Below are positions 1 through 24,661 of a stretch of 24,931 bases of DNA, in pieces. The DNA is taken from contig JBGFSC010000031.1 in assembly GCA_041694815.1 (NCBI GenBank), forward strand, positions 1 through 24,931, read 5' to 3'. A program made the translations under genes and the position numbers. How positions within the stretch are numbered: position 1 is the stretch's first letter; the number at the start of each line of letters is the position of its first letter. The notes under the pieces are model-generated. The model was not told the DNA's origin. It did no database searches and saw nothing but the letters and a program-made list of their open reading frames with translations. Source of the DNA: Elusimicrobiota bacterium (GTDB lineage: Bacteria > Elusimicrobiota > Elusimicrobia > UBA1565 > JACRDR01).

Positions 1-134
1 AGTTGATGCAGGACTGTGTTATAATGAGGCATAGGCGTCCTCCGTCGGTAGATTGCTTCCTCGCAGAAACATTCTACCAATGACGAAGGGCGCCTACGCT
101 ATTTTAACCGGACAGGAGTGGACCCAAATATCAT

Positions 135-644
135 TTGAAGCCTCCGGCCCCGCGCCAATACGAGGAGCAATGGCGGCTAAAGGCCGGGACCATCGCCCAG
201 AATGCCGCCAAGTGGGCGCTGACGCTCTCCATCCTCGCGATTCTGGCCACCCAGGCCGGCTCCGTCATTCTGGGCTTCTTGATGACCGAGCCCTCCCTCG
301 CCATGTCCACGAAGCCCGAAGACATCAACTTGATGATCAACCTTATCCACTGGCGACGCTCGCTTATGATCGTGACCGCGTTGAGCATGGCGACCGGAAC
401 CTTGATGACGATTCCCGCCGTGACGCCTCATGGGAAAAAATGGGTTCGTGAACTCGGCGCGAGAATCGGAGCTTGGTTCGGTAAATGGATGGACGCCGCC
501 GCGCATCGAAGCTACATCCGCGCCAAGAGAGCGGAATGGAAAAAGACCTTGTCGACCGCCGCCAAGCCCGTCAGCTCCGCTTCGAGCACTAACGATGGCT
601 CCGCGGAGGACGAGCCAAGCGCGGAAGAAAGGTTTAAGTTATGA
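135..644 (+). CDS. RFK-tail small membrane protein family, paralog 1. Shortest module: no signal peptide, starts at the conserved GPKYH / PPxPxQYE block. Possibly a 5'-decayed copy. TTG start in the track
   Basis: Shares with paralogs 2, 4 and 5 the motifs PAPRQYEEQWRLKAG, two hydrophobic helices, GARIGAWFGK, AHRSYIRAKRAEWKKTLS and a C-terminal SAEERFKL. The in-frame upstream peptide DRSGPKYH matches ALGPKYH of paralog 2 but is cut by a TAA at 105-107. The stop overlaps the ATG of paralog 2 (ATGA). Confidence 0.45.
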   Translation: MKPPAPRQYEEQWRLKAGTIAQNAAKWALTLSILAILATQAGSVILGFLMTEPSLAMSTKPEDINLMINLIHWRRSLMIVTALSMATGTLMTIPAVTPHGKKWVRELGARIGAWFGKWMDAAAHRSYIRAKRAEWKKTLSTAAKPVSSASSTNDGSAEDEPSAEERFKL

Positions 645-1402
645 AAGCGGGAACTAAGTTCCTGGTGGCCTTCTTATGCGCCGCCTTCGGTCTGAGTTCG
701 GCTTACAGCGAGACGGGCGCGCTGGAATGGGAGAAGATGAACTCTGGCCTGCTCTTTGAGCGCAGCGCCAGAACGGAATCCGCTGTTTCCGCGGTAGCGG
801 CGCTCGAGCTGCCATCAACGGTTATCCGACTGAACTCCGACGCACTCGGGCCAAAGTACCACATCGCGCCCCCCGAACCAAAACAATATGAAAAGTCCTG
901 GCGCTTTAAGGGAGAAAGCATAGCGGAGAAGGTGACCAAAATCGGGCTTAAAACCAGCATCGTGGGCTTTGTGGCCTCCTTGATCGCCTTTAACGTCTCA
1001 CCCGTTCTAGTGGATGCCCTCCTATACTCTAGGGATTTTTTTCAAATGCAGCTGGCGGTTACGTTAATACAATTACGGCCGATTCTGCTTCTATCAACCT
1101 GCATGGGCCTTCTAGGAGGCCTCTTTTGGGCCCTGTTCACGCTGACCCCTCCGGGCCGCGATTTTGTGAAAAGCGCAGGAGGCCGGCTCGGCGCCTGGCT
1201 TGGAAGGCGCAAGGATATCAATGCGCATAAAACTTACTTCCGGACGAAAAAAGAGGAATGGACTGAAATGCTGTCAGCTGGACGTGCAAGGCAATTGACC
1301 ACGACGGACCAGGAACTTTTACCTACCGCATCCCCGCCCTCGACAGCGAAGCCCAAGGGGAAAGCTTGGGAGTCCGCAGAGGAAAGATTCAAACTCCGAT
1401 GA
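641..1402 (+). CDS. RFK-tail small membrane protein family, paralog 2. Signal peptide, two TM helices, C-terminal ESAEERFKLR
   Basis: ATG start. N-terminal signal peptide MKAGTKFLVAFLCAAFGLSSAYS. Motifs GLLFE, PPEPKQYEKSWRFKGE, two TM segments, GGRLGAWLGRRKD, AHKTYFRTKKEEWTEMLS, acidic tail, ERFKL near the C-terminus. The stop TGA overlaps the ATG of paralog 3. Confidence 0.7.
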   Translation: MKAGTKFLVAFLCAAFGLSSAYSETGALEWEKMNSGLLFERSARTESAVSAVAALELPSTVIRLNSDALGPKYHIAPPEPKQYEKSWRFKGESIAEKVTKIGLKTSIVGFVASLIAFNVSPVLVDALLYSRDFFQMQLAVTLIQLRPILLLSTCMGLLGGLFWALFTLTPPGRDFVKSAGGRLGAWLGRRKDINAHKTYFRTKKEEWTEMLSAGRARQLTTTDQELLPTASPPSTAKPKGKAWESAEERFKLR

Positions 1403-1824
1403 ACGCTGTTTCGCATTCACCGTTCTCGTCCATCTTAATTGCTTCCACATTCTGTCCTGTAAAGCACGTTTCAGCCGAGGCTGCCCTGGAGATGCTCAAG
1501 CATGACTCCGGCATCCTTTTTGAGCAGACCACCGAACGACGGACGGACTCCCCGACCTGGAACACGCCGACGCTTTCGCTGCCTTACGTTGAAGCAGCGG
1601 CTCTGACGAACAACGTTTTCTCGAAACTACAGGGCCCGCGCCAGGACCCATCGGTCGGCTCTGCAATCGGACAGTCCTTAGGCCAAAAAAAGGACCAACG
1701 CGAATACGCTGCTTACCTAGAAGCAAAAAGACAGGAGTGGTCCCACAGCTTAACGAAACCCGCGAATTTAGAATCCCCCGATCCTGAAAGCGAGGATTCC
1801 GCCCAGGACCGGTTTAAACTTTAA
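1399..1824 (+). CDS. RFK-tail family, paralog 3. Soluble variant lacking the PPxPK/TM core but retaining the LFE box, the Y..K..EW helix and C-terminal DSAQDRFKL
   Basis: ATG at 1399 overlaps the upstream stop (ATGA). Hydrophobic N-terminus MNAVSHSPFSSILIASTFCPV. Motifs SGILFEQ, EYAAYLEAKRQEWSHSL and a C-terminal DRFKL. The track ORF begins 33 nt earlier in the same frame. Confidence 0.6.
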   Translation: MNAVSHSPFSSILIASTFCPVKHVSAEAALEMLKHDSGILFEQTTERRTDSPTWNTPTLSLPYVEAAALTNNVFSKLQGPRQDPSVGSAIGQSLGQKKDQREYAAYLEAKRQEWSHSLTKPANLESPDPESEDSAQDRFKL

Positions 1825-1826
1825 CG

Positions 1827-2426
1827 ATGCCCCGGTCCTTTTTCCTTATGTCATTATGCATCTTACCTGTGTTCAGTGAGGATGCGTCGAGTCCCGAAAA
1901 GCATAAGGCGGGATCGGGCGCGCTTTTCGGCGAGACGGTCCCTACGCCTGCGGCATCCGCCATCACTCGTGAGGAACCGAAGGTGCACCCCCTCGCCCTG
2001 GCGGCGGGGGCGGGAAACCCTGCGGGATCGGTTCCGGAACCTCCTCAACCGAAGCAATTCGAACAAGCTTGGGAGCAAAAAGGCATGCGGCGCGGTCAGC
2101 TCATCGGTTCCGCCATCTTCTTTCCGACGATATTCGGCATGCTTATATCGATGGCCGGAGCCTTTGCGACTTCAAGGGTCGAATTCGTCATAGCGATCCA
2201 ATTCCTCGCGCTGGCCTTCCTTTCCGGATTTATCCCTCTTATGATCGCTCCCTTGATCGGAAGGCGCCTGGGAAAGGCGAAGGATACCCGCGAGTACCGG
2301 CGCTATTTGGAGGAACGCCTGGCATCGTGGTCGCGGCCCCCGAAGGCCGAGGACGGCCCCAAAACCGACGGAACGCAAACGGACGGTGACGATGCCGATT
2401 CCGCCCAGGAGCGATTTAAATTTTGA
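1827..2426 (+). CDS. RFK-tail small membrane protein family, paralog 4
   Basis: Signal peptide MPRSFFLMSLCILPVFS. Motifs SPEKHKAGSGALFGE, PPQPKQFEQAWEQKG, two TM helices, GRRLGKAKDTREYRRYLEERLASW, acidic tail and C-terminal DSAQERFKF. Starts 2 nt after the paralog 3 stop. Confidence 0.7.
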   Translation: MPRSFFLMSLCILPVFSEDASSPEKHKAGSGALFGETVPTPAASAITREEPKVHPLALAAGAGNPAGSVPEPPQPKQFEQAWEQKGMRRGQLIGSAIFFPTIFGMLISMAGAFATSRVEFVIAIQFLALAFLSGFIPLMIAPLIGRRLGKAKDTREYRRYLEERLASWSRPPKAEDGPKTDGTQTDGDDADSAQERFKF

Positions 2427-3064
2427 AAATAATCTTACTGCTACTGACGATGACGTTTCGGCTCCCTTGCTTCGCCGATAGGCTCAGCCCGGAGAAGCTT
2501 AAAATGGAATCGGGCGTTCTTTTCGGCGAGAAGATATGGACGCAAGATGCCTCCGTTAAGGTGACGGCCCCACCGGCCGGCATCGCCGCTCTGGCCGCCG
2601 GACCGGATTCCCCTTCGAAAATGATCGCCGCGCCACCGCAACCGAAACGATTTGAGGAGGCCTGGAGCAAGAAAGGCGCGCGTATCGGGGACGGGATCGG
2701 CTCATGGATGGGCCTCGTCATGCTGGGCGTGTCGCTCGGAGTCACGGGGTTTGCTTTTTATATCGGCGGTCCCACGCCAGTCCTTGAAGGGAACCCGGGA
2801 GCGCCTTTCCTCACCTTAGGCTGTACTTTAATGATAAGCAGCCTGTTCTGCCTCGGCCTCGTCTCCGCGCTACTGCGATTTGCCGGAGGCGATCTTGGGA
2901 AATTATCAGGGAAGTGGAGAGACCATCAGGAGCACAAAGCTTATTTAAAAGCAAAACAGGCCGAGTGGATGCAACGCCTGAAGGAAAAACCAGAGGACAA
3001 CCCACAGGAACGCACCATAGAGGCATCGGAGTCGGACACCGCGCAAAATAGGTTTAAGTTCTAA
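2423..3064 (+). CDS. RFK-tail small membrane protein family, paralog 5. TTG start overlapping the upstream TGA
   Basis: The TTG start yields a good signal peptide MKIILLLLTMTFRLPCFA; the internal ATG would lose it. Motifs SPEKLKMESGVLFGE, PPQPKRFEEAWSKKG, two TM helices, EHKAYLKAKQAEWMQRL, acidic tail and C-terminal DTAQNRFKF. Confidence 0.65.
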   Translation: MKIILLLLTMTFRLPCFADRLSPEKLKMESGVLFGEKIWTQDASVKVTAPPAGIAALAAGPDSPSKMIAAPPQPKRFEEAWSKKGARIGDGIGSWMGLVMLGVSLGVTGFAFYIGGPTPVLEGNPGAPFLTLGCTLMISSLFCLGLVSALLRFAGGDLGKLSGKWRDHQEHKAYLKAKQAEWMQRLKEKPEDNPQERTIEASESDTAQNRFKF

Positions 3065-3751
3065 ATGAAAGCCTGGATAATCGCGTTGCTTACCAATGCC
3101 GTTCTCGCCTCCTCTTATCCTCTAGTCGACGCCGATATTACCGCCTTCGATAGAACGATTACGGAAATGGAGCGCCGCTTTAGCGGTAGGCCCAAAAATG
3201 CTCATGACAAAAAATGGGTCAAGGCCAAGTTATCGCATATGTTTAAAGTCGACCAGCATCTTCGAACATTCGCGATGGAAACGCCTTTAAAGAAATCATA
3301 TTCCGGCGAAGAAAAACGGTACTTCTGGGAGAAATTAGGGCCTCGTTGGAAAATGATCGATCATCGAAACACGACGGACTTAAAGGAGCTGCTGGCGGTC
3401 TACGGATGGATTAAGATTAGCGAATTCGGGGAGGAAGCCGACAATGCGGCCTGGCTGCTGGTCCAACACGCCGATGACGATCTCGCTTTTCAAAAAGAGA
3501 CGCTTATAAAGTTAGCGGCGCTCTATCCCGCGGGTGAAACAAAGCCATCCCACTATGCCTATCTCTACGATAGAGTGGCCATTCATGAAAATCGGCCGCA
3601 GCTATACGGCACTCAAGGGCGATGCGTCGCCGGAACTTGGGAGCCTTTCCCGATCGACAGTCCCGGGGAAGTCGATGAACGCCGCAAGGCGATGGGGCTG
3701 GAACCGCTTTTAGAATATAAGCAACGCTTTCAGGGCGCCTGCGATAGCTAG
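3065..3751 (+). CDS. Secreted hypothetical protein, last gene of the paralog operon
   Basis: ATG is immediately after the TAA of paralog 5. Signal peptide MKAWIIALLTNAVLASS. Contains blocks such as AWLLVQHADDDLAFQKE and YAYLYDRVAIHENRPQLYGTQ; I could not assign a family. Its stop overlaps the convergent mazF stop. Confidence 0.7.
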   Translation: MKAWIIALLTNAVLASSYPLVDADITAFDRTITEMERRFSGRPKNAHDKKWVKAKLSHMFKVDQHLRTFAMETPLKKSYSGEEKRYFWEKLGPRWKMIDHRNTTDLKELLAVYGWIKISEFGEEADNAAWLLVQHADDDLAFQKETLIKLAALYPAGETKPSHYAYLYDRVAIHENRPQLYGTQGRCVAGTWEPFPIDSPGEVDERRKAMGLEPLLEYKQRFQGACDS

Positions 3752-4098
3752 ACGCCGCGCGGATTCAACAACACCAGGAGCTTCTCGATGACTTCCCCTA
3801 AGATCGCCTCTGAAACCCTGCAACAAAACCGGGAATCCCTGGCTTGCCAATCCAAGCTCCTGACCTGATCGGCGAGCGCGACGCCGGAAACCCTCAAGCC
3901 CGGAGGCAATGAAACCTCAAAAGGGTAACCCTTCACCTGGCTTGTAATCGGGCAAAAGATCGCAAGTCCGACCTTTCGATTATACCCTTCGGGAGAAAGC
4001 GTCAGAGCCGGCCTATGGCCAGCCTGCTCGTGCCCCGCTTGAGAAGCAAAGGAAAGCCAAACGACATCGCCGCGTTTCGGGCAATACGGCTGCGGCAT
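3748..4098 (-). CDS. mazF: MazF/PemK-family endoribonuclease toxin
   Basis: The 116 aa product aligns along its length with E. coli MazF: GDVVWLSF..GHEQAGHRPALTLSP, GLAIFCPITSQVKGYPFEV, GVALADQVRSLDWQAR. Confidence 0.85.
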   Translation of the reverse strand: MPQPYCPKRGDVVWLSFASQAGHEQAGHRPALTLSPEGYNRKVGLAIFCPITSQVKGYPFEVSLPPGLRVSGVALADQVRSLDWQARDSRFCCRVSEAILGEVIEKLLVLLNPRGV

Positions 4099-4341
4099 TC
4101 ACCAGGTCTCTTGTCCGGCCCTGCGACCCCAATCCTGTTCGTCGTGACGATTCTTCCGGGTGACGCCTTTGAGCATTCTTGAAAGCGAGTACCTTCGTTC
4201 ACCCTTTGGTTTTACGACGATCTTTCCCTCCACGACGGCCACCTCGACCACCGTGCCCTGATGCAGGCGCACATCTTTGGCAAGCGAGCTTGGGATACGG
4301 AGGGCCAGGCTATTTCCCCATCTTTGAACGGTCGCATTCAT
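4099..4341 (-). CDS. mazE: MazE antitoxin (AbrB/SpoVT swapped-hairpin family)
   Basis: 80 aa. VQRWGNSLALRIPSSLAKDV...GKIVVKP...DWG..W mirrors E. coli MazE (VKRWGNSPAVRIP...IDWGEP..VW). Lies directly upstream of mazF on the same strand. Confidence 0.8.
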   Translation of the reverse strand: MNATVQRWGNSLALRIPSSLAKDVRLHQGTVVEVAVVEGKIVVKPKGERRYSLSRMLKGVTRKNRHDEQDWGRRAGQETW

Positions 4342-4369
4342 GGCAGGCTCCCCAGGAGTATCTACAATG

Positions 4370-4397
4370 AGTATACCTCATTATCCGCAGATGTCAA
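4370..4397 (-). promoter_or_regulatory. Putative mazEF promoter: TTGACA-N16-TATACT with GAGTAT direct repeats
   Basis: The minus strand reads cTCTTGACAtctgcggataatgaggTATACTcattgtagatactcctGGGGAGcctgccATG. The -35 is perfect, the -10 near consensus, and a GGGGAG SD lies 7 nt before the mazE ATG. Confidence 0.5.
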
Positions 4398-4427
4398 GAG
4401 CTTGATTCCTTAACGAGCCCCAACTCG

Positions 4428-4853
4428 TCAACCGCCACCCTTAAGCGGCAAAGCCCTAAGTCGAACAAGCTTCCCCAAATGCTCGAATTCCGGATCCTTA
4501 TGCACCAGCGTGGCGCCTAGTCGCTCAGCGGTCGCAGCGACCCAAGCATCGGCTACGGAAAGCTTATGCCCGGCCTTTATTCGCGCGGCCGCAAGCCCTA
4601 ATGGCTCGTCGCTCTCAACGGTCTCAACGGGAAGCTGCTTGAGCTCGAGTATGCCTTGGCGAGCCGCCGTCTCGCCCTGCTCCTGCTCGAGAACATAGGC
4701 GAACTCCATGATCGACATGAAACTAATAAAGACCCGCCCGTTCTTCCCTTCTCGCCTAAGGATCAACTCCACTTCGGCGGCGCCGGGCTCGTTCTCTTTC
4801 AGGCAGAGCAAAGCCGACGTATCCAGAACGAAGGTTTCAACGGCGGGAGGCAT
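4428..4853 (-). CDS. vapC: PIN-domain ribonuclease toxin (VapC-like)
   Basis: 141 aa beginning FVLDTSALL, with acidic PIN residues spaced as in VapC. The start overlaps the upstream small antitoxin gene by 17 nt. Confidence 0.8.
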   Translation of the reverse strand: MPPAVETFVLDTSALLCLKENEPGAAEVELILRREGKNGRVFISFMSIMEFAYVLEQEQGETAARQGILELKQLPVETVESDEPLGLAAARIKAGHKLSVADAWVAATAERLGATLVHKDPEFEHLGKLVRLRALPLKGGG

Positions 4854-5061
4854 CTTCCCTACGGCTAGCCAACAAGGCCTTTGTTAAGCCCTTGGGAGCC
4901 GATCCGCGGAACGCGGAAATAGGGTCTTTGGCTACCGGGAGCACGTAGATCACCTTACCATCCTCCGCCCACTCCAGGCGCTGATGCGCCTTGAGCTTGA
5001 AGCGCTTGCGGATTCGGGCCGGTATCGCCGTCTGTCCCCGCTCGCTGAGTGTAGTCACCAT
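4837..5061 (-). CDS. vapB: AbrB/MazE/SpoVT-type antitoxin (VapB-like)
   Basis: 74 aa. SERGQTAIPARIRKRFKL is a swapped-hairpin DNA-binding N-terminus. Directly precedes and overlaps vapC. Confidence 0.7.
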   Translation of the reverse strand: MVTTLSERGQTAIPARIRKRFKLKAHQRLEWAEDGKVIYVLPVAKDPISAFRGSAPKGLTKALLASRREDASRR

Positions 5062-5067
5062 AAGCCT

Positions 5068-5096
5068 AGTATAACAGTCGTCCGGAACCGCGTCAA
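5068..5096 (-). promoter_or_regulatory. Putative vapBC promoter TTGACG-N17-TATACT; transcript predicted leaderless
   Basis: The minus strand reads ctacTTGACGcggttccggacgactgtTATACTaggcttATG. Only 6 nt separate the -10 from the vapB ATG. Confidence 0.5.
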
Positions 5097-5153
5097 GTAG
5101 TTTTCAATAAATTACATGTAAATAATAAATATTGGCATGCGGGCACAGTGATT

Positions 5154-5205
5154 GCGTTTCTGCGGATTTTACTTCCAACGTTGGAAGTAAAATTAACAGA
5201 AACGC
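5154..5205. repeat. Nested AT-rich palindrome: 26-bp perfect palindrome TTTTACTTCCAACGTTGGAAGTAAAA (5167..5192) flanked by GCGTTTCTG / CAGAAACGC arms
   Basis: Read directly from the sequence. It sits in the AT-rich gap between the small ORF downstream of valS and the vapBC promoter, at the GC-content transition. Confidence 0.6.
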
Positions 5206-5207
5206 AT

Positions 5208-5388: not shown

Positions 5389-8085
5389 TCAATTCAAGCT
5401 GCTTAAAATTTCGCGCAGGCGGCTCTGCTTCTGCTCGAAATCGGCCTGGCGGCGGCGTATCGTCTCCACCTCCGCCTGCGGCGCGCGGGAGACGAAGGCC
5501 TCGTTCGACAATTGATTCTTGCACCGGGCCAATTGGGCGTCGATCTCCCGGGCTTCCTTCTCGAGCCTCGCGCGCTCCTTGTCGAAGTCGATCAAGCCCT
5601 CGAGCGGCACGTAGAAGGTCAGGCCCGCCGCCAAGGCCGTCGCGCTGCGCGCGGGCTTGGCCCCTTCGGCCTCCGACAGGCTTTCGAGCCGCGCCAAATA
5701 TTTTAAATAGGGAGCGTGCTCGAGCACAAGCCCCCCGCGGTCCTTGGGGCCCTCGAAATGCGCCTGGATCTTGAGTCCCGGCGGCACGTTCAGCTGCGAA
5801 CGCAGGGTGCGCAGGGCCACGACCGCTTCCATCACCGCCTCCATCCTGGAAACGTTCTCGCCGTCCTGCCAATCCCTTTCCAAAACGGGGCCGCCAGACT
5901 GGATGAGGAAATCATGCGACTGGCCGGCGAAGGCCTTAAGGGAGGCGTATAACTCCTCCGTGATGAACGGCATGAAGGGGTGCAGCATCTTGAGCGTTCC
6001 CACCAGGACCTCGACCAGGATGGCGCGGGCGGCTTCCTTTTCCTCCCCATCAATGCCGGTCAGCCGAATCTTGGCCAACTCCACGTACCAGTCGCAAAAG
6101 CTGTCCCAAAGGAAGCCGTAAAGCGTATCGGCGGCCGCGGCGAATTCATGCGCGTCCATGTTCTCGCGCACCCGGGCGAGCATACCCTGGTACTGCGCCA
6201 AGACCCATCGATCAGCCAACTCCAGGCAGCAGTGGGACAAAGACTCCAGGCGATAACCGCCTGCCGGCGGCGCCGCCGGCAGATTCATGAGCACGAAGCG
6301 CGTCGAGTTCCAGAGCTTGTTGGCGAAATTGCGCGGGCCGGTGATGGAGTCCTCGGCGAAGGGGATGTCCCGGCCCGGATGGGCCTGCGACAGCAGCGAG
6401 AATCGGAAAGCGTCGGTGCCGTATTTGTCCATCATCACCAAGGGGTCGACGACGTTGCCGAGAGACTTGGACATCTTCTTTCCGGCCTTGTCGCGCACGA
6501 TGCCATGGATGATCCCCGTCGAGAAGGGAACCCCGCCCATGAGCTCCAACCCCATCATCTGCATGCGCGCGACCCAGAGGTAGAGTATCTCGTAGCCGGT
6601 CACCAGGGCCGAGGTCGGGTAAAAATACTCCAGGTCTTTCGTCTTCTCCGGCCAGCCGAACACCGAAAAGGGCCACAGGGCCGAGGAGAACCACGTGTCG
6701 AGCACGTCGGGGTCCTGAAGCAGCGAGGTCCCGCCGCAATCGGGGCATCGTTGGGGCTTTTCCGCGCCGGGGATCCCTTTCAGGTCCGCGGCCTGATGGA
6801 AATCCTTCTCGCTTATTCCAGGATTGCACGAGACGCAATACCAGACGGGAATGCGATGCCCCCACCAGATCTGACGCGAGATGCACCAGTCGCGGATCTC
6901 CTGTAGCCATCGGCGGTACGGGTTCCTCCAGCTCTCCGGAAAAAGCCTGAAATCGCCGCGATCCAGGGCGCGGACGGCCGGCTCGGCCAGCTTGGGCATC
7001 TTCACGAACCACTGCCACGACACGAGCGGCTCGATGGCCTGGTTGCAGCGGTAGCAGACGCCGACGGCGTGTGGGTGCTCCTCGGTCTTCTCGAGGAATC
7101 CCCCGTCGCGCAAGTCCGCGGCCACCTTGTCGCGGGCCTGCTCGCGGGAAAGGCCTGAGTATCCTTCTCCGGCGTCCGCGGTCATCTTCCCGTCGGGACC
7201 GATCACCTTGATGGAAGGCAGCGAGTGCCGCTGCCCGATCTCGAAGTCATTGGGGTCATGGGCCGGGGTCACCTTCACCGCGCCGGTCCCGAAGGAGGGG
7301 TCCACGTGCTCGTCCGCCTTGACGGGGATCGTTCGCCCCGTCAGCGGGAGCTTAAGCGTCTTGCCGACCAGGGCGGCATAGCGAGAATCCTTGGGATTGA
7401 CCGCCACCGCCGTGTCGCCGAGCATCGTCTCGGGACGGGTCGTGGCCACCACCAGTCCCCGGCCGCCGTCGGCCGACGGATAATGGATATGCCAGAGCTT
7501 CCCTTTGCGCTCCTCGTATTCCACCTCGATGTCGGAAAGCGCGGTGCCGCAGCGCACGCACCAGTTGACCATGCGCTCGCCCCGGTAGATGAGCCCCTTT
7601 TCCCAAAGATGCTTGAAGGCGGCCAATACCGCCCGCGCGCGGGGCTCGTCCATGGTGAAGGCCTCGCGATCCCAGTCCAGGGCGCAGCCGAGCCGCTCGA
7701 GCTGCCCCAGGATCGTGCTCTTGCAGGCCAGGGTCCACTCGCGCATGCGCTCCAAAAATTTCTCCCGGCCCAGAGCCTGCCTCGAGCCCTTCTCCGCGCG
7801 CAGCTGCTTCTCCATGACGTTCTGCGTCGCGATGCCGCCGTGGTCGGTGCCCGGGACCCAACAGACCGCATCGCCGTTTAACCGCCGCCAGCGGACCATC
7901 AAGTCCTGGAGGGCGTTGTTGAGGGCATGGCCGATATGCAGCGCGCCCGTCACGTTCGGCGGAGGGATGACCACGACGAAGGGCCGCGCCTCGGCGGAGG
8001 GCTCGGCGTGGAAGAGCCGCGCCCGCCTCCAGGCCGAGACCCATTTCGCCTCGACGGGCCCGGGATTGTAAACCTTCTCTAGCAT
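5389..8085 (-). CDS. valS: Valine--tRNA ligase
   Basis: N-terminus MLEKVYNPGPVEAKW. Class I HIGH motif PPPNVTGALHIGHAL. KMSKS motif (GKKMSKSLGN). Editing domain. C-terminal coiled coil (EAREIDAQLARCKNQLSNEAFVSRAP). The track ORF continues 38 aa upstream to 8199 as R/P-rich text; the ATG at 8085 was chosen. Confidence 0.9.
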   Translation of the reverse strand: MLEKVYNPGPVEAKWVSAWRRARLFHAEPSAEARPFVVVIPPPNVTGALHIGHALNNALQDLMVRWRRLNGDAVCWVPGTDHGGIATQNVMEKQLRAEKGSRQALGREKFLERMREWTLACKSTILGQLERLGCALDWDREAFTMDEPRARAVLAAFKHLWEKGLIYRGERMVNWCVRCGTALSDIEVEYEERKGKLWHIHYPSADGGRGLVVATTRPETMLGDTAVAVNPKDSRYAALVGKTLKLPLTGRTIPVKADEHVDPSFGTGAVKVTPAHDPNDFEIGQRHSLPSIKVIGPDGKMTADAGEGYSGLSREQARDKVAADLRDGGFLEKTEEHPHAVGVCYRCNQAIEPLVSWQWFVKMPKLAEPAVRALDRGDFRLFPESWRNPYRRWLQEIRDWCISRQIWWGHRIPVWYCVSCNPGISEKDFHQAADLKGIPGAEKPQRCPDCGGTSLLQDPDVLDTWFSSALWPFSVFGWPEKTKDLEYFYPTSALVTGYEILYLWVARMQMMGLELMGGVPFSTGIIHGIVRDKAGKKMSKSLGNVVDPLVMMDKYGTDAFRFSLLSQAHPGRDIPFAEDSITGPRNFANKLWNSTRFVLMNLPAAPPAGGYRLESLSHCCLELADRWVLAQYQGMLARVRENMDAHEFAAAADTLYGFLWDSFCDWYVELAKIRLTGIDGEEKEAARAILVEVLVGTLKMLHPFMPFITEELYASLKAFAGQSHDFLIQSGGPVLERDWQDGENVSRMEAVMEAVVALRTLRSQLNVPPGLKIQAHFEGPKDRGGLVLEHAPYLKYLARLESLSEAEGAKPARSATALAAGLTFYVPLEGLIDFDKERARLEKEAREIDAQLARCKNQLSNEAFVSRAPQAEVETIRRRQADFEQKQSRLREILSSLN

Positions 8086-8092
8086 GCTAACC

Positions 8093-8216
8093 GGCGACGA
8101 CCCCGGGCATTGCTTCCGTCGGAACGCGCGGCCTTTGGGGCCGCGCTCTGTCCTCGGCGGCTTTGGGGTGCGCCGCCTGCGGAGGTCCTCCTCCAGCAAT
8201 GCCCAGGGTCGTCGCC
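8093..8216 (-). promoter_or_regulatory. Structured valS leader: 21-bp long-range inverted repeat (8093..8113 / 8196..8216) enclosing further GC hairpins
   Basis: GGCGACGACCCCGGGCATTGC pairs with GCAATGCCCAGGGTCGTCGCC, 20 of 21 Watson-Crick plus one G-U in the mRNA sense. The 3' arm ends 7 nt before the valS ATG. Internal hairpins: GCGCGGCC-TTTGG-GGCCGCGC and GGAGGTCCTCC. Confidence 0.4.
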
Positions 8217-8220
8217 AATC

Positions 8221-9519
8221 TCACAAAAGCTCAGACGCCAGGGCCGCCAGCGGGCTGCGCTCGATCTTGGAGAAGGTCACGTGCCCGAACAGGGGCTGGC
8301 CCTTGAAATGCTCCACCAGGTTGGTGAGCCCGTTGGAGGCGGCGTCCAGGTAATAATTGTCGATCTGATAGGGATCGCCGGTCAAGACGATCTTCGAGCC
8401 CTGCCCGACGCGCGAGATGATGGTCTTGATCTCGTGCGGCGTCAGGTTCTGGGCGTCGTCGATGATGATGTATTGGTTGGGCAGCGTGCGGCCGCGCAAA
8501 AATGTCACGGCCTCGATCTCGATCTTCTTCTGCTCGACGAGCATCTGGATGCTCATCTCGCTTTCCTCGGAATGGGGCCGGTCCATGAGAAACTCGAGGT
8601 TGTCGTAGATGGCTCCCATCCAGCTCTCGAGCTTCTCCTGCTTGGATCCGGGCAAGAACCCGATGTCGTGGCCCACCGCGATCACCGGCCGGGCGATGAG
8701 CATGCGGCGGTAGAGCTTCTCCTCGAGTATCTGCTCGAGGCCCGCGGCCAAGGCCATGAGCGTCTTGCCCGAACCGGGGACCCCGACCAAGGTGACGAGC
8801 TGCACCTCCTTGCGCATCAAAAGCTCCAGGGCGAAGCGCTGCTCGGTGTTGAGCGGCTTGATGCCCCACGGCACGGTGTCGGCCTTCGTTAACGGCACCA
8901 GGGAGCCCAGCTTCTGGTCGTAGCGGGTCAAAGCGGACTTGGAGCCGCCGTCGTTGTCCTTGAGGATCACGAATTCGTTGGGCTTAAGCCCTCCCTCGTT
9001 GACCGCCAGGCGCCGGGTCTTGTAGAAGGAGTCGATCTCGCCCGGGGGCGCGCCCACCTCCTGCCAGCCGCGGTAGAGGTCGGTCACGTCGACCTTTTCC
9101 CTCTCGTAGTCCTGCGTGTCGAGCCCGATGGCCTCGGCCTTGATGCGCAGGTTGATGTCCTTGGAGATGAAAACGATCTTGTCGCCCTCTTTCTTGAGCT
9201 GCTGCGCGACGGCGAGGATCATGTTGTCCTTGCTATGGGACAGGAAGGTCGGCGGCAGGCCGTTGCCGCTCACCATCTCGACCTTGAGAGTGCCCCCATG
9301 CTCCAGGATAACCCCGTCCGATAATTTCCCCTTGGACCTCAGGCCGTCGAGCTTGCGGGCCACCAGCCGCGCCGCGCGGCCGCGCTCGTCGTTGTTGCGC
9401 TTGAAGGTATCGAGCTCCTCGATGACGGGCAACGGCAGCACCACCTTCGAGCCCTCGAAGGCGAAGATGGCGTTGGGGTCGTGGATGACGACGTTGGTGT
9501 CGAGCACGAAGGTTTTCAC
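8221..9519 (-). CDS. PhoH-like ATPase with N-terminal PIN domain (PhoH2/YlaK type)
   Basis: GTG start preceded by GGGAGG-N5 gives MKTFVLDTNVVIHDP, a PIN N-terminus. Walker A GVPGSGKT. PhoH C-terminal block IIIDDAQNLTPHEIKTIISRVGQGSKIVLTGDPYQID. The track ORF extends 213 codons upstream into hemW as GC-frame artefact. Confidence 0.85.
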   Translation of the reverse strand: MKTFVLDTNVVIHDPNAIFAFEGSKVVLPLPVIEELDTFKRNNDERGRAARLVARKLDGLRSKGKLSDGVILEHGGTLKVEMVSGNGLPPTFLSHSKDNMILAVAQQLKKEGDKIVFISKDINLRIKAEAIGLDTQDYEREKVDVTDLYRGWQEVGAPPGEIDSFYKTRRLAVNEGGLKPNEFVILKDNDGGSKSALTRYDQKLGSLVPLTKADTVPWGIKPLNTEQRFALELLMRKEVQLVTLVGVPGSGKTLMALAAGLEQILEEKLYRRMLIARPVIAVGHDIGFLPGSKQEKLESWMGAIYDNLEFLMDRPHSEESEMSIQMLVEQKKIEIEAVTFLRGRTLPNQYIIIDDAQNLTPHEIKTIISRVGQGSKIVLTGDPYQIDNYYLDAASNGLTNLVEHFKGQPLFGHVTFSKIERSPLAALASELL

Positions 9520-9568
9520 GGTTGCCTCCCACAGCGATCGACGCAACCATTTCCTCGAATATTCTCGG

Positions 9569-10672
9569 TCATTGCACGAACTCCTCGAAGACGCGGTTGG
9601 CGAGGTAGAGCCCTTCCCCCGCGAGCTTGACGGTGTCATCCTGCTTGGCGATCCAACCCCGCCGCAAGAGCCGCGCCCATTGCGGCTCGAAGGCTTCCCA
9701 CATCTCGGGCGTGAGCGCCATCCCGTCGATCTGCCGGAGGCCGAGCAGGACGGTCTCGCCCATGCGCCGCAGGGGCGAGAGGGACTCGGACTCGAGGACG
9801 GCGCTCCGGCCCGATTCGATGGCGGCGCAATAGGCCTCCAGGCGGTCCAAGTTCTGCGTGCGCTGGCCGTCCAAATAAGAGGAGGCCCCGCACCCCAGGC
9901 CCAGGTATTCCTCGTTGCGCCAGTAGATCCGGTTGTGGATCGACTCGAAACCGGGCCTGGCGAAATTGGATATCTCGTAATGGTGGTAGCCCAGCGCCTT
10001 GAGCCGCTCGATGGAGCCCTCGAACATATCGCGCACCAGGTCTTCGTCGACCTGGAAGCCGCGCCTGGCCAGTAGTGTGCGGTCCTCGACTTGCAGGCAA
10101 TAAAGCGAGAGATGATCGCAATCGAGCGACAAGACGGACTCCAAGCTGCGCCGGGCATCCTGGGGGCTCTGCCCCGGAAGGCCGACCATAAGGTCGACGT
10201 TCACGGCGAAGCCTCGGGCCTTCGCTGCGGCGTAGACCCTACAGAAATCCTCCCAGCCGTGCCGGCGGCCCAGCGAGCGCAACAGCCGGTCATCGGCGCT
10301 CTGGAGCCCCAGGCTCAAGCGGCCGACGCCGCGACTGCGCAACACGTCCATCTTTTCCTCGCTCAAGCTCTCGGGATTGGCCTCGAAGGTCGATTCGAGA
10401 AAGCCCTCGACGGGGCCGAAGAGCTCCTCGACGCTGCACAAGAGCTCGTCCATCTCTTCAGCCGAGAGTTCGCTCGGCGTGCCCCCGCCCACATAGAGCG
10501 TGTCCACCGGCCTATGGCGCGAGCGCGATTCCGCCGCCAGCGCCCGGAGGTAGCGCCCCGTCCGGTTCCGCTGCCCCGCGAAAGCCGTGAAATCGCAATA
10601 GAAGCACTTGATGGAGCAAAACGGGACGTGGATGTAGAGTCCTCGCAGACCCACGTCGCGGGGCGCGCTCAA
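9569..10672 (-). CDS. hemW: Radical SAM heme chaperone HemW (HemN-like, oxygen-independent coproporphyrinogen oxidase family)
   Basis: [17 protein letters not shown] carries the CxxxCxxC radical SAM motif in the HemW context. GGGTPS. C-terminal HemN_C-like domain. TTG at 10672 overlaps the SPFH stop (TTGA). An alternative GTG at 10654 gives [13 protein letters not shown]. Confidence 0.8.
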
Positions 10673-11415
10673 GACCCCGCGCGCTTGATGAAGGAGGCCA
10701 TGAAATCGATCGGCACCGGGAACAGTGTCGTCGAATTCTTGTCCGCCGCGATCTCGGTTAAGGTCTGCAGGTAGCGCAATTGGATGGCCGCGGGATCCTT
10801 GGACATCACCATCGCGGCCTCCGAGAGCTTCTGGGAGGCCTGGAGCTCGCCTTCGGCGTGGATGATCTTGGCACGGCGCTCGCGCTCGGCCTCCGCCTGG
10901 CGGGCCATGGCCCGCTGCATCTCGACGGGCAGGTCGACGTTCTTGACCTCGACGTTGGAGACCTTCACCCCCCAGGGTTCGGTGTGCTGGTCGAGTATCT
11001 GCTGTAGCTCGAGATTGATCTTGTCGCGATTGGCGAGCAGGTCGTCGAGCTCCATCTTGCCGAGCACGCTGCGCAGCGTCGTCTGGGAGAGTTGGCTCGT
11101 CGCGTAGATGTAGTTTTCCACCTGGAGCACGGCCTTGCCGGGGTCCATGACCCGATAATAGATGACGGCGTTGACCTTGAGGGAGACGTTGTCGCGCGTG
11201 ATGACGTCCTGGGGAGGCACGTCGAAGACGATGGTGCGGAGGCTGACGGTGACCATGCGCTGCAGGGCCGGGATGACCAGGGTGATGCCGGGGCCCCGCG
11301 TTCCGGAAAAGCGTCCGAGCGTGAAGATGACGCCGCGTTCATATTCGTTAAGTATCTTGATGCTGGAGAGGACGATGACGATCAGGAAGATTACGATGGG
11401 GGATAATCCGAGCAT
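10669..11415 (-). CDS. SPFH/band-7 (stomatin/slipin-like) membrane protein
   Basis: ATG preceded by GGAGG-N6. N-terminal [22 protein letters not shown] core [19 protein letters not shown]...[18 protein letters not shown]-terminal coiled coil [21 protein letters not shown]. The track start at 11445 is an upstream TTG. Confidence 0.85.
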
Positions 11416-11470
11416 GTGGGCCTCCGGTTTGAATGATTCTGTCAAAATAAGGGCGGTGTGCGCAAGCCAG

Positions 11471-11545
11471 CGCGAAATACTCGCGAGGAACCTCGAACTC
11501 GTCGCGCGAAGCGCGACGAGTCACGCGCCCGAGGCGCGTAAAAGA
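11471..11545. repeat. Intergenic mosaic palindromic repeat, locus 1: modules D, AACCTCGAA, hairpin A, hairpin C
   Basis: D is CGCGAAATACTCGCGA at 11471..11486, also at 15160..15175. Hairpin A is CTCGTCGCGC-GAA-GCGCGACGAG at 11498..11520, identical at 24787..24809. Hairpin C is ACGCGCC-CGA-GGCGCGT at 11523..11539, present inverted at 24678..24694. Confidence 0.7.
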
Positions 11546-11558
11546 CCGTTTATACATT

Positions 11559-11567
11559 TGGTATAAT
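11559..11567 (+). promoter_or_regulatory. Extended -10 element TGGTATAAT upstream of ispG; no consensus -35
   Basis: TGnTATAAT lies 9 nt before the ispG ATG at 11576, implying a very short or leaderless 5' end. The same element type precedes the dehydrogenase operon. Confidence 0.35.
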
Positions 11568-11575
11568 TGTTTTTT

Positions 11576-13513
11576 ATGCCAACCGAAACCCTCCCATCGA
11601 CGGCCCCGCCGGCCTACTGCTCCGACCCCTTCGGCTACGCCCGGCGCAAAACCCGCGTCGTCCGCGTCGGCAAGGTGCCCGTCGGCGGGAACAACCCCAT
11701 TCGCGTCCAGTCGATGACGACGACCGATACCCTCGACGTCGAGGCGACCGTGGCCCAAACCCTGAAAATGGTGGAGGCCGGCTGCGAAATCGTCCGGATC
11801 ACCGCGCCCACGGTGGGCGACGCGCGGGCGCTCGGCAAGATCAAGGAGCGGCTACTGCGCTTGGGCTGCGACGTTCCGCTCGTCGCCGACATCCATTTCT
11901 CCCCCCAGGCCGCGATGGAAGCCGCCGAGTACGTCGAGAAGGTCCGCATCAACCCCGGCAATTTCGTCGATTCCAAGCGCTTCGCGGTCAAGGAGTACAG
12001 CGACGAGCAGTACGCCGAGGAACTCTCCCGCATCGAGGCGGCCTTCACCCCCCTCGTGGAGAAGCTCAAGCGCCTGGGCCGCGCCCTGAGGATCGGCACC
12101 AACCACGGCTCGCTCTCCGACCGCATCATGAACCGCTACGGCGACACCCCCCTGGGGATGGTCGAGTCGGCCTTGGAGTACGTGCGCATCTGCGAGAAGA
12201 ACGGCTACCGGGACATCATCCTCTCGATGAAGGCCTCCAACCCCAAGGTGATGGTCGCGGCCTACCGCCTGCTCGCCGCGCGGATGGAGGAGCTCGGCAT
12301 GGATTATCCCTTCCATCTGGGCGTGACCGAGGCGGGCGACGGGGAGGACGGGCGGATTAAATCCGCCATCGGCATCGGCAGTCTGCTCGCAGACGGGATC
12401 GGGGATACCATACGGGTTTCGCTGACCGAGGACCCGGAATACGAAATCCCCGTTTGTTATGCTCTCGCCCGGCCGTTCCAACCCACGTCTTTGAGGCAAG
12501 TCACGCGCCCAAAGCGCGTAAATACCCTCCCATACGATCCGTTTTATTATGAGCGCCGTAAGAGCCGTCCCGTGTCCATCGGCCCCTTCCCCGCCGGTGA
12601 CGCGCAGCTCGTGCGCGTCGTCACGGCGTTCAAGGAGAATCCCTCCGCCGAACAGATACTCGCCTTCTTGGAGGAGCAGCTCCGCGCCGCCAAAAACCTC
12701 GAGCCCGAGATCATCGAGTGGCGGGTCCGCGGGGGTTCGGATCTCGAAGCCCTCTCGGCGCTGCGCGCACGGCTGCGCGCCGAAACATCCCGGCTCGCCT
12801 TCGCCGCCCGTTTCGAGCCGCCCGCCCAGCCGCTCGCGCGGGGCGATTTCGACGCGTTGATCCTGGAGGCGCCATCGGCCGAGGAGTTGATGTCCCTGCG
12901 CGCGCGGATGGAGCCGGAAACGCCCGTCCTGCTTTCGCTGCGGGGCGAGGACGCCGGCGCGCTGCTCAAGGAATACAGGCTCCTGGCCTCCAGGCTCAAG
13001 GCCGCCGGCTCCAAGGAGCTCATCCTTTTGCGGGCTCCGGTCCAGGCGGAGGAGCAAGAGCAGGTGCTGGCCTCCTCGGTGCTCATCGGCAGCCTGTTGT
13101 GCGACGGCATCGGCGACTGCGTGCAGGTGGACTCCGCCCTTAAGCCGGCGCGCAACCTGGAGCTCGTCTACAACATACTGCAGGCCGCCGGCGTGCGCGT
13201 CACGAAGACCGAGTTCGTTTCCTGCCCCTCCTGCGGGCGAACCCTGTTCAACCTGCAGACCACCACCGAGCGGATCAAATCGAAGACGGGGCACTTAAAG
13301 GGCGTCAAGATCGCCATCATGGGATGCATCGTCAACGGCCCCGGCGAGATGGCCGACGCCGATTTCGGCTATGTCGGGGGCGCCCCGGACAAGATCAATC
13401 TCTACGTTGGCAAGGAATGCGTGCGCAAGGGTATCCCCGCCGCCGTCGCCGACGAGGCCCTCATCGAGCTCATCAAGTCCCACGGCAAGTGGGTAGAGCC
13501 GCCCTCCGCGTAG
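11576..13513 (+). CDS. ispG: 4-hydroxy-3-methylbut-2-enyl diphosphate synthase IspG/GcpE, long form with central insert domain
   Basis: N-terminal TIM-barrel block VGKVPVGGNNPIRVQSMTTTDT...NPGNF. C-terminal 4Fe-4S block FVSCPSCGRTLFNLQ...IMGCIVNGPGE. About 270 extra residues between them. The track start is a TTG 9 nt upstream. Confidence 0.9.
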   Translation: MPTETLPSTAPPAYCSDPFGYARRKTRVVRVGKVPVGGNNPIRVQSMTTTDTLDVEATVAQTLKMVEAGCEIVRITAPTVGDARALGKIKERLLRLGCDVPLVADIHFSPQAAMEAAEYVEKVRINPGNFVDSKRFAVKEYSDEQYAEELSRIEAAFTPLVEKLKRLGRALRIGTNHGSLSDRIMNRYGDTPLGMVESALEYVRICEKNGYRDIILSMKASNPKVMVAAYRLLAARMEELGMDYPFHLGVTEAGDGEDGRIKSAIGIGSLLADGIGDTIRVSLTEDPEYEIPVCYALARPFQPTSLRQVTRPKRVNTLPYDPFYYERRKSRPVSIGPFPAGDAQLVRVVTAFKENPSAEQILAFLEEQLRAAKNLEPEIIEWRVRGGSDLEALSALRARLRAETSRLAFAARFEPPAQPLARGDFDALILEAPSAEELMSLRARMEPETPVLLSLRGEDAGALLKEYRLLASRLKAAGSKELILLRAPVQAEEQEQVLASSVLIGSLLCDGIGDCVQVDSALKPARNLELVYNILQAAGVRVTKTEFVSCPSCGRTLFNLQTTTERIKSKTGHLKGVKIAIMGCIVNGPGEMADADFGYVGGAPDKINLYVGKECVRKGIPAAVADEALIELIKSHGKWVEPPSA

Positions 13514-13593
13514 CGCGACATCCCCGCGTCATAATTCTTTTACCCTCGCTCCATGCCCCCTGGGGCGCAAGAAAGGTTTAATGTGCCGCCCGC

Positions 13594-14460: not shown

Positions 14461-14515
14461 TCCCCATATAAGCTTTACCGTCCGCTCATGCCTTCGCGCG
14501 CTGGCCTCGCCTATA

Positions 14516-15157: not shown

Positions 15158-15159
15158 GC

Positions 15160-15227
15160 CGCGAAATACTCGCGAAGATGGTGCCAGGGATTGACTTTCG
15201 CCTAGGCGAAAGTCAATCCCTGGCACC
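15160..15227. repeat. Intergenic mosaic repeat, locus 2: module D, CTCGCGAAGAT linker, 48-bp perfect palindrome B
   Basis: B is GGTGCCAGGGATTGACTTTCGCCTAGGCGAAAGTCAATCCCTGGCACC at 15180..15227, an exact self reverse complement centred on CCTAGG, identical at 24718..24765. The linker recurs inverted at 24766..24776. Confidence 0.75.
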
Positions 15228-15234
15228 GCATATT

Positions 15235-15243
15235 TGCTATAAT
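15235..15243 (+). promoter_or_regulatory. Extended -10 element TGCTATAAT upstream of the dehydrogenase-rib operon
   Basis: TGnTATAAT lies 17 nt before the ATG at 15261, immediately downstream of palindrome B. Confidence 0.35.
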
Positions 15244-15260
15244 AATCCTTCTAAATTCAA

Positions 15261-20637: not shown

Positions 20638-20655
20638 AAACGAATTGTCCCCCCC

Positions 20656-20688: not shown

Positions 20689-24661
<3,973 letters not shown>

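What the first reader, a model, noticed from the sequence alone, without database searches (positions are those of the whole stretch)
600..3064. Invariant acidic tail ending in [DE]-[ST]-A-[EQ]-[DEN]-R-F-K-[LF]-COOH on every paralog
All five copies end the same way: SAEERFKL, SAEERFKL(R), SAQDRFKL, SAQERFKF, TAQNRFKF. Each ending follows an acidic, low-complexity stretch. A C-terminal hydrophobic-x-hydrophobic ending fits a PDZ-domain ligand of the kind that activates DegS-type envelope proteases. A C-terminal recognition tag for a processing or sorting machine is another reading. With a cleaved signal peptide and two TM helices the tail would be periplasmic. This is inference only.
Basis: partly seen in the sequence, partly recalled or inferred. 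Interest (0 to 1): 0.6.

Follow-up and report, generated by a model that had tools for sequence, protein, structure and literature searches.

The report
Conserved C-terminal RFK[LF] docking tail
Five neighbouring genes in an uncultured Elusimicrobiota genome encode an unannotated family of small membrane proteins that all end in the same peptide (…A-x-x-R-F-K-L/F), which is clearly under selection and most likely serves as a tethered docking tag, but its reader and its side of the membrane remain unknown.

Summary
Five tandem + strand ORFs (135-644, 641-1402, 1399-1824, 1827-2426, 2423-3064) end in SAEERFKL, SAEERFKLR, SAQDRFKL, SAQERFKF and TAQNRFKF. No other ORF tail in the window does. Arg is encoded by four different codons, so selection acts on the protein.

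A full HMMER scan of 1.84 billion representatives found seven more full-length members. They lie on four other NCBI contigs, and all end in A-[EQD]-x-R-F-[KR]-L. Overall pairwise identity is 28%, against 85% for the last four residues.

The family has no Pfam, NCBIfam, PHROG, PADLOC or PDB match. Its parts are:
- a Sec-type signal peptide;
- a second conserved motif at the mature N-terminus;
- a glycine-zipper-flanked two-helix hydrophobic hairpin;
- a basic juxtamembrane helix;
- a disordered, mostly acidic spacer;
- the terminal peptide.

My best reading is a tethered C-terminal docking peptide. A PDZ-type reader, as for MucE (…RWVF) and AlgW/DegS, is the leading candidate but was not tested.

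The window holds no PDZ protease. The periplasmic placement also conflicts with the positive-inside rule (K+R 33/8/35 for pre-TM1, loop and post-TM2). The downstream DUF6624 gene is widespread and is not a dedicated partner. This is a real but orphan feature of modest interest.

The parts
135..644 (+). Paralog 1, 169 aa from TTG-135. Homology continues upstream through two in-frame stops, so this is a 5'-degraded copy at the contig start. It has no signal peptide. It has two hydrophobic helices, the G-x3-G-x3-G..D..Y..EW helix and the tail SAEERFKL (618-641).
641..1402 (+). Paralog 2, 253 aa. Its ATG overlaps the stop of copy 1 (ATGA). It has a signal peptide (AYS|ETG), the N-terminal motif, the hairpin and a net +2 spacer. 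The tail is SAEERFKL plus one extra Arg (1373-1399).
1399..1824 (+). Paralog 3, 141 aa from ATG-1399 (ATGA overlap with the stop of copy 2; an alternative TTG lies at 1366). The hydrophobic hairpin is deleted and the signal peptide is weak. The N-terminal motif, juxtamembrane helix and tail SAQDRFKL (1798-1821) are kept.
1827..2426 (+). Paralog 4, 199 aa. It has a signal peptide (VFS|ED), two hydrophobic helices, an acidic spacer (net -6) and the tail SAQERFKF (2400-2423).
2423..3064 (+). Paralog 5, 213 aa from TTG-2423 (TTGA overlap with the stop of copy 4). It has a signal peptide (CFA|DR). AF2 predicts helices 76-115 and 127-187 with a disordered tail. The spacer is net -4 and the tail is TAQNRFKF (3038-3061).
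3065..3751 (+). DUF6624 protein with a signal peptide. Its start codon directly follows the stop of paralog 5, so it is probably in the same operon. It is listed as a neighbour only. It is not a dedicated partner, because the family is widespread without RFKL-family genes nearby.

Best explanation
The five genes belong to an orphan, lineage-restricted family of small envelope membrane proteins with at least 12 members.

Architecture, in order:
1. A Sec-type signal peptide.
2. A conserved motif [LP]-E-x2-K-x2-S-G-x2-F at the mature N-terminus.
3. A disordered spacer.
4. PPxP...E...G-x3-G-x3-G leading into a two-helix hydrophobic hairpin.
5. G-x3-G-x3-G-[KR]-x-[KR]-D-x6-Y-x2-A-K-x2-E-W-x3-L, which is one long helix continuing out of the membrane.
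6. A 13-32-residue disordered, mostly acidic spacer.
7. The invariant end [ST]-A-[EQD]-x-R-F-[KR]-[LF]-COOH.

Proposed mechanism: the terminal peptide is a short linear docking motif held on a flexible tether. A peptide-binding pocket on another protein reads it together with its free carboxylate. The most likely reader is the PDZ domain of a periplasmic HtrA/DegS/AlgW-type or Prc/CtpA-type protease. The proteins would then act either as MucE-like activators of the protease or as its tagged substrates.

Shown: the motif, its strict terminal position, protein-level selection, family-wide conservation, the disordered tether, and the absence of any known domain.

Inferred: docking as the function, a PDZ-type reader, and the periplasmic location.
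For: - Exact endings, found only on these five ORFs in the window.
- Four different Arg codons, and only 65-89% DNA identity in the tails.
- All seven other full-length members end in A-[EQD]-x-RF[KR]L.
- A(-6), R(-3) and F(-2) are invariant in 12 of 12. Pairwise identity is 28% overall, 66% for the last 8 residues and 85% for the last 4.
- The stop codon follows directly in 11 of 12 members.
- AF2 gives a confident helical hairpin plus juxtamembrane helix (pLDDT 83-92) and a low-confidence tail (about 53).
- The spacer varies in length (13-32 aa) and in sequence while the tip stays fixed.
- N-termini have short uncharged cores (10-21 aa), basic n-regions and -3/-1 sites in front of acidic mature ends, in 9 of 10 full-length members. 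With an even number of membrane helices this places the tail outside the cytoplasm.
- Positions 0 and -2 are hydrophobic/aromatic, as in the DegS and AlgW ligands. R(-3) and acidic -4/-5 also match MucE SVRDELRWVF (PMC8545111).
Against: - No PDZ protein or any other candidate reader lies in the window.
- No other locus of the family could be read, so co-occurrence is untested.
- K+R distribution is 33/8/35 for pre-TM1, loop and post-TM2. The G-R-R-K-D cluster after helix 2 also argues, by the positive-inside rule, for a cytoplasmic tail.
- P0004 has only one strong hydrophobic helix, which would also put its tail inside.
- Copy 2 ends RFKLR, which masks the carboxylate position.
- Invariance reaches back to -6/-7, further than a minimal PDZ contact.
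- The few Elusimicrobiota outer-membrane-protein-like C-termini I could sample end in ordinary ...YIF or ...QF, not RFKL. That sample is very small.
Confidence: 0.45

Rival explanations
1. The tail is cytoplasmic. It acts as a tethered recruitment peptide or a degron. Both flanks of the hairpin face the cytoplasm, and the acidic spacer plus terminal peptide recruit a soluble partner to the membrane. The analogues are the chemoreceptor NWETF pentapeptide for CheR/CheB, and the SSB or FtsZ C-terminal peptides. Alternatively the tail hands the protein to a cytoplasmic AAA+ protease such as FtsH or ClpXP.
For: - K+R counts of 33/8/35, with a nearly charge-free inter-helix loop.
- An invariant basic cluster directly after helix 2.
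- P0004 has a single strong membrane helix.
- Copy 1 as annotated has no signal peptide.
- The layout of disordered acidic linker plus conserved terminal peptide matches these cytoplasmic systems. [quoted passage not shown]
Against: - The N-terminal segments look like cleavable Sec signal peptides, not anchors. Given that and two helices, parity puts the C-terminus outside.
- The motif matches none of the known cytoplasmic consensus peptides (xWxxF, DDDIPF, DIPxFLR, LAA; from my own knowledge).
- There is no MCP, SSB or FtsZ domain.
Confidence: 0.25
2. The ending is a sorting, secretion or processing signal. A dedicated machine recognises the C-terminal peptide and then exports, cleaves or anchors the protein.
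For: - The terminal position is strict, and the termini are conserved around a variable middle across at least 12 paralogs.
- The genes sit in a compositionally foreign segment. GC3 is 0.60-0.77, against 0.83-0.88 in the housekeeping genes.
Against: - No sortase, exosortase, rhombosortase, ABC transporter or other secretion gene is in the window.
- Known C-terminal sorting domains (LPXTG, PEP-CTERM, GlyGly-CTERM) combine a motif with a hydrophobic helix and a basic end. Here the tail is hydrophilic and ends four residues after Arg (sequence; my own knowledge of those families).
- No NCBIfam sorting-domain model matches.
Confidence: 0.1
3. The tail acts within the family. The acidic spacer and terminal peptide fold back on the basic juxtamembrane helix or on the conserved N-terminal motif, either of the same chain or of a paralog. 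This would give auto-inhibition or hetero-oligomer assembly of the array products.
For: - The acidic spacer and the basic helix carry complementary charges.
- A second conserved linear motif sits at the other end of the protein.
- Many co-expressed paralogs are encoded with overlapping start and stop codons.
Against: - AF2 does not dock the tail with any confidence (pLDDT about 53).
- Two members have a net basic spacer.
- A strictly terminal position is not needed for such a contact.
Confidence: 0.1
4. The conservation is at the nucleotide level. It would reflect a ribosome-binding site or translational-coupling signal for the next gene, or gene conversion between tandem copies.
For: - Start and stop codons overlap or abut (ATGA, TTGA, TAA-ATG).
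- AGGA-like strings occur in the E/Q-E/D codons of copies 2-4.
- The tail is the best-conserved DNA segment between copies.
Against: - Arg uses AGG, AGA, CGG and CGA, and Leu/Phe uses five different codons.
- The spacing of the purine strings to the next start codon varies from 8 to 18 nt.
- DNA identity is only 65-89%.
- The motif is kept in members on four other contigs.
Confidence: 0.02

Closest known systems
MucE (P. aeruginosa) and outer-membrane-protein C-termini as activators of the PDZ proteases AlgW and DegS
   Same: MucE is a small, lineage-restricted envelope protein with a signal peptide whose function resides in its extreme C-terminus. It has aromatic/hydrophobic residues at positions 0 and -2. 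MucE SVRDELRWVF and the family's EPSAEERFKL also share Arg at -3 and acidic residues at -4/-5 (PMC8545111).
   Different: - There is no sequence homology to MucE.
- Here the protein has a two-helix membrane hairpin and occurs as an array of at least five paralogs.
- Position 0 is mostly Leu and position -1 is Lys/Arg.
- Neither a PDZ protease nor an anti-sigma/sigma-E-type module has been shown nearby, or in the genome at all.
- The compartment of the tail is unresolved.
Chemoreceptor C-terminal pentapeptide (NWETF / xWxxF) that tethers CheR and CheB
   Same: It is a membrane protein with a flexible linker of a few tens of residues ending in a short, conserved, strictly C-terminal peptide that serves as a high-affinity docking site (bioRxiv 10.1101/2024.03.07.583918, PMC10561060).
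   Different: The consensus is different, and there is no MCP signalling domain. That tail is cytoplasmic, and here no chemotaxis genes are nearby.
SSB C-terminal tip (…DDDIPF) and the FtsZ C-terminal conserved peptide
   Same: Each has a disordered, acidic or low-complexity linker followed by a short conserved terminal peptide ending in a hydrophobic residue, and that peptide acts as a protein-interaction hub (my own knowledge).
   Different: They are cytoplasmic soluble proteins with unrelated folds and motifs. No homology was found.
Glycine-zipper two-helix hairpin envelope proteins (SlyB/Pcp type; Pfam Gly-zipper families)
   Same: They are exported by a signal peptide and have a hydrophobic helical hairpin. 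Here G-x3-G-x3-G motifs sit at both ends of the hairpin.
   Different: No Pfam Gly-zipper model matches; the best hit is E=0.25 for one member. The family has no lipobox and no beta-sandwich domain. The helices here are as hydrophobic as ordinary inner-membrane helices.

Membership tests
HtrA/DegS/AlgW-activating C-terminal PDZ ligands (OMP YxF, MucE WVF) | The motif sits at the extreme C-terminus with a free carboxylate | tested here: met
   The stop codon directly follows L/F in 11 of 12 members. Copy 2 has one extra Arg.
HtrA/DegS/AlgW-activating C-terminal PDZ ligands (OMP YxF, MucE WVF) | Large hydrophobic or aromatic residues at positions 0 and -2 | tested here: met
   Position 0 is L (9) or F (3), and position -2 is F in 12 of 12. 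The criterion is taken from PMC8545111.
HtrA/DegS/AlgW-activating C-terminal PDZ ligands (OMP YxF, MucE WVF) | The tail lies in the periplasm | tested here: inconclusive
   A signal peptide plus two helices predicts a tail outside the cytoplasm. The K+R distribution of 33/8/35 predicts a tail inside.
HtrA/DegS/AlgW-activating C-terminal PDZ ligands (OMP YxF, MucE WVF) | A cognate PDZ protease (and its substrate) is present and linked to the ligand | not testable with these tools
   None is encoded in the window. The rest of the genome and the four other family contigs could not be fetched.
Chemoreceptor C-terminal pentapeptide tether | xWxxF consensus on a protein with an MCP signalling domain | tested here: not met
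   The tail is RFK[LF] with no Trp. No MCPsignal or any other Pfam domain was found.
C-terminal sorting domains (LPXTG, PEP-CTERM, GlyGly-CTERM and similar) | A signature motif followed by a hydrophobic helix and a basic cluster at the C-terminus | tested here: not met
   The last 25-40 residues are hydrophilic and predicted disordered. There is no NCBIfam hit.
Outer-membrane beta-barrel C-terminal beta-signal | A terminal aromatic residue with alternating hydrophobic residues in the last strand of a beta-barrel | tested here: not met
   The protein is predicted to be all-helical. Positions -4 and -6 are polar or Ala.
Pfam glycine-zipper families (PF13488, PF05433) | A match to the family model above the gathering score | tested here: not met
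   The best hit is E=0.25, for one of 12 members.

The most novel reading that the evidence does not exclude
The array would encode a previously unknown kind of membrane-anchored 'bait' or adaptor. Each paralog would carry two conserved linear motifs, one at the mature N-terminus and the RFK[LF] carboxy-terminus, on long disordered arms on either side of a variable hairpin. An as yet unidentified C-terminus-reading machine would read them. That machine could be a new sorting or processing system, or a dedicated envelope-stress protease circuit with multiple MucE-like inputs, specific to this Elusimicrobiota lineage.
Probability: 0.12. Interest if true: 0.6.

Novelty: new variant of a known kind. 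Interest (0 to 1): 0.35.

Why it matters
If the tail is a PDZ or other C-terminus-reader ligand, this would be a second, independent example after MucE of dedicated small envelope proteins whose only conserved 'active site' is their last few residues. Here they are multiplied into an array, which hints at several inputs into one protease or sorting node in a poorly studied phylum.

In practice the family is tiny. The full scan of 1.84 billion representatives of about 15 billion proteins gave thirteen hits: eleven full-length family members (copy 2, the twelfth member, is not listed separately), one fragment and one spurious hit, all on five NCBI contigs.

The result also corrects the public annotation. 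Three of the five genes are called with downstream starts that cut off the signal peptide.

Tried and rejected
- **Ribosome-binding site, translational coupling or gene conversion as the cause.** Rejected on synonymous-codon variation and on conservation on other contigs.
- **Integron-cassette or attC-like repeat.** Rejected. The genes abut or overlap, and homology runs along their whole length.
- **DUF6624 as a dedicated partner.**
  - It has more than 518 homologues in many lineages.
  - The two distinct DUF6624 neighbourhoods examined (four loci, L081-L084) hold no family member.
- **Known domains for the family.** No significant or consistent match in Pfam, NCBIfam, PADLOC, PHROGs, PDB sequences or Foldseek against PDB.
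- **Fetching other family loci.** All attempts failed:
  - exact-product look-ups;
  - chimeric-query scans of viral, GTDB-representative and JGI metagenome contigs;
  - a degenerate DNA pattern for the juxtamembrane helix in metagenomes, which gave one random hit.
- **Family members near valS in 54 Elusimicrobiota genomes.** None found.
- **Whether Elusimicrobiota outer-membrane proteins end in RFKL-like signals.** The sample was too small and showed ordinary endings.
- **Literature.** No paper in the searched library holds 'RFKL' together with 'C-terminal'.
- **afdb50 fold library.** It was unavailable.
Full report
**What is in the sequence**

The first 3,064 bases of the window carry five + strand ORFs in tandem: 135-644, 641-1402, 1399 (or 1366)-1824, 1827-2426 and 2423-3064. 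Their products align along their whole length at 25-38% identity.

Among 431 stop-terminated ORF tails in all six frames, only these five end in RFK[LFIMV]. The one other RFKL in the window is internal to the vapB antitoxin.

The conservation is at the amino-acid level. The Arg codons are AGG, AGA, CGG, CGA and AGG. The last codon is TTA, CTC, CTT, TTT or TTC. The tail DNA is only 65-89% identical between copies. This excludes gene conversion. Together with the variable spacing of purine-rich strings to the next start codon, it also excludes a ribosome-binding-site constraint as the cause.

**Is it conserved elsewhere?**

The window is a whole 24,931-bp NCBI contig.

A word-indexed search found only the window's own proteins. 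A full HMMER scan of 1.84 billion cluster representatives found 13 hits:
- four window copies (copy 2 is not listed separately);
- seven other full-length members (P0004, P0006-P0011);
- one fragment (P0012);
- one compositional false hit (P0013).

All seven full-length members end in A-[EQD]-x-R-F-[KR]-L. They lie on four other NCBI contigs. One is a 7,276-bp contig holding P0004, P0006, P0007, P0009 and P0012, which is a second array. The others are 24,934, 25,683 and 27,059 bp. All are singleton clusters.

In the 12-sequence alignment, A(-6), R(-3) and F(-2) are invariant. Mean pairwise identity is 28% overall, 66% in the last eight residues and 85% in the last four.

All pairs but one are 22-40% identical, and there are no ortholog-like pairs between contigs. 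The family therefore looks like an old paralog expansion in one genome or population.

**Organism and setting**

The valS product of the window is at most 67% identical to anything in the GTDB species representatives. The best 54 loci are all Elusimicrobia/Elusimicrobiota MAGs. None of those loci holds a family member. The window genome itself is not in that collection.

Neither JGI metagenome contigs nor viral contigs hold the family. A degenerate pattern that matches 8 of the 12 known members gave one random hit.

The array is followed by a DUF6624 gene (3065-3751), mazEF (3748-4341, - strand) and vapBC (4428-5061, - strand). Housekeeping genes come next: valS, phoH-like, SPFH, ispG, rib genes, nusB, ligA and purH.

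The first 5.1 kb is compositionally foreign. Its GC is 0.55-0.56 against 0.65 for the rest. Its GC3 is 0.58-0.77 against 0.83-0.88. No promoter-like or terminator-like site interrupts the array on the + strand. Starts and stops overlap or abut, so one operon is likely.

**Anatomy of the protein**

Nothing in Pfam, NCBIfam, PADLOC, PHROGs or PDB sequences matches significantly or consistently.

The alignment shows five conserved elements:
- a signal-peptide-like N-terminus;
- [LP]-E-x2-K-x2-S-G-x2-F just after the predicted cleavage site;
- PPxP...E...G-x3-G-x3-G entering the first hydrophobic helix;
- G-x3-G-x3-G-[KR]-x-[KR]-D-x6-Y-x2-A-K-x2-E-W-x3-L leaving the second helix;
- the tail.

AF2 on copy 5 with the 12-sequence alignment gives helices 76-115 and 127-187, with pLDDT 83-92 for the second. 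The last 26 residues score about 53. Foldseek against PDB finds nothing at E<=0.001.

The spacer before the tail is 13-32 residues long. It is net -2 to -6 in 10 of 12 members and +2 in copy 2 and P0004.

Copies 1 and 3 are aberrant. Copy 1 is cut by in-frame stops at the contig start. Copy 3 lacks the hairpin. Even so, both keep the tail.

**Which side of the membrane?**

The two lines of evidence disagree.

- Nine of ten full-length members have a basic n-region, an uncharged core of only 10-21 residues and -3/-1 cleavage sites in front of an acidic mature end. That is a classical Sec signal peptide.
- K+R counts are 33 before helix 1, 8 in the short loop and 35 after helix 2. By the positive-inside rule (established knowledge) this puts both flanks, and hence the tail, in the cytoplasm. 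P0004 also has only one strong helix.

I cannot resolve this with the tools at hand and treat it as roughly even.

**What the tail most likely does**

The features are:
- a strictly terminal, invariant peptide;
- a variable, disordered tether;
- invariance that extends over about seven residues;
- conservation through deep divergence and in otherwise damaged copies.

This is the signature of a short linear docking motif whose carboxylate is part of what is read.

For a periplasmic tail, the best-documented readers are the PDZ domains of HtrA-family and tail-specific proteases. In PMC8545111, positions 0 and -2 determine specificity (YQF for DegS, WVF for AlgW). The activating MucE decapeptide there is SVRDELRWVF. 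The family's EPSAEERFKL shares hydrophobic 0, aromatic -2, Arg -3 and acidic -4/-5.

This is a resemblance, not a test. No PDZ gene is in the window, and the genome is out of reach.

If the tail is cytoplasmic, the nearest analogues are the chemoreceptor pentapeptide tether and the SSB or FtsZ terminal peptides (my own knowledge). Their consensus sequences are not met.

**The neighbour DUF6624**

It has a signal peptide, a confident all-helical model (pLDDT 95) and many invariant polar residues plus a near-invariant Cys pair. Its PDB matches are only generic helical bundles.

It has more than 518 homologues in many lineages. The two distinct neighbourhoods I examined (four loci, L081-L084) have no RFKL-family neighbours. 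It is therefore not a dedicated partner, although a local interaction is not excluded. One paper notes that it co-occurs with some graspetide gene clusters (PMC13097080).

**Verdict**

The general reading as a C-terminal recognition tag is well supported by conservation. The specific PDZ/DegS reading is chemically plausible but untested, and the periplasmic placement is uncertain.

The feature is a new variant of a known kind of device, a tethered C-terminal docking peptide, on an unannotated orphan membrane-protein family of an uncultured Elusimicrobiota bacterium. Interest is modest.

Noticed in passing
window 1-5100 versus 5389-24931: The paralog array, DUF6624 and the two toxin-antitoxin pairs form a compositionally foreign block. 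GC is 0.55-0.56 against 0.65, and GC3 is 0.58-0.77 against 0.83-0.88 in valS, phoH, ispG and ligA. This suggests a horizontally acquired or fast-evolving island at the contig end.
   Followed up: partly
window 5153-5206: A 54-nt palindrome with 27-nt arms, no spacer and 89% complementarity. It lies between the vapB promoter region and the 3' end of valS, right at the GC-content step. It could be a bidirectional terminator or an island boundary.
   Followed up: no
window 1373-1402: Copy 2 ends RFKLR. A CGA codon precedes the TGA stop, and that TGA is also part of the ATGA overlap with the start of copy 3. It looks like a one-codon extension created by a mutation, and so a natural 'carboxylate-masked' variant of the motif.
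   Followed up: partly
window 1-644: Homology of copy 1 to its paralogs (GPKYHLKPPAP...) continues upstream of the TTG-135 start through two in-frame stop codons. The contig therefore starts inside a degraded copy, and the assembly probably broke within the paralog array. A 7,276-bp contig carries a second array, including a 78-aa fragment (P0012) that is 50/65 identical to the N-terminus of copy 2.
   Followed up: partly
window 1399-1824: Copy 3 has lost the entire two-helix hydrophobic hairpin and has only a weak signal peptide. It still keeps the N-terminal motif, the juxtamembrane helix and the tail.
   Followed up: partly
window 710-745, 1480-1515, 1893-1928, 2489-2524 (about 6-20 residues after the predicted signal-peptide cleavage sites): A second family-wide linear motif, [LP]-E-x2-K-x2-S-G-x2-F, sits at the mature N-terminus. 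E and F are invariant in the 11 members that have this region. Both ends of the protein therefore carry conserved short motifs on disordered arms.
   Followed up: partly
window 1366-3064: The public (NCBI) gene calls for copies 3, 4 and 5 are 110, 113 and 186 aa (P0005, P0003, P0001). They start downstream and omit the signal peptide and, for copy 4, the N-terminal half. Family alignment supports the longer ORFs, including the TTG start at 2423.
   Followed up: yes
[not shown]
   Followed up: partly
window 3748-4341 and 4428-5061 (- strand): There are two type II toxin-antitoxin pairs, MazF/MazE and PIN-VapC/AbrB-type VapB. Each has a strong sigma-70-like promoter match just upstream: 4397-4370 (11/12) and 5096-5068 (10/12).
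   Followed up: no
window 14204-15157: An ORF with weak CsgG/FlgO-like domain matches (E 5e-11 and 1e-6) lies directly after, and overlaps, a small histidine kinase gene (13594-14460).
   Followed up: no
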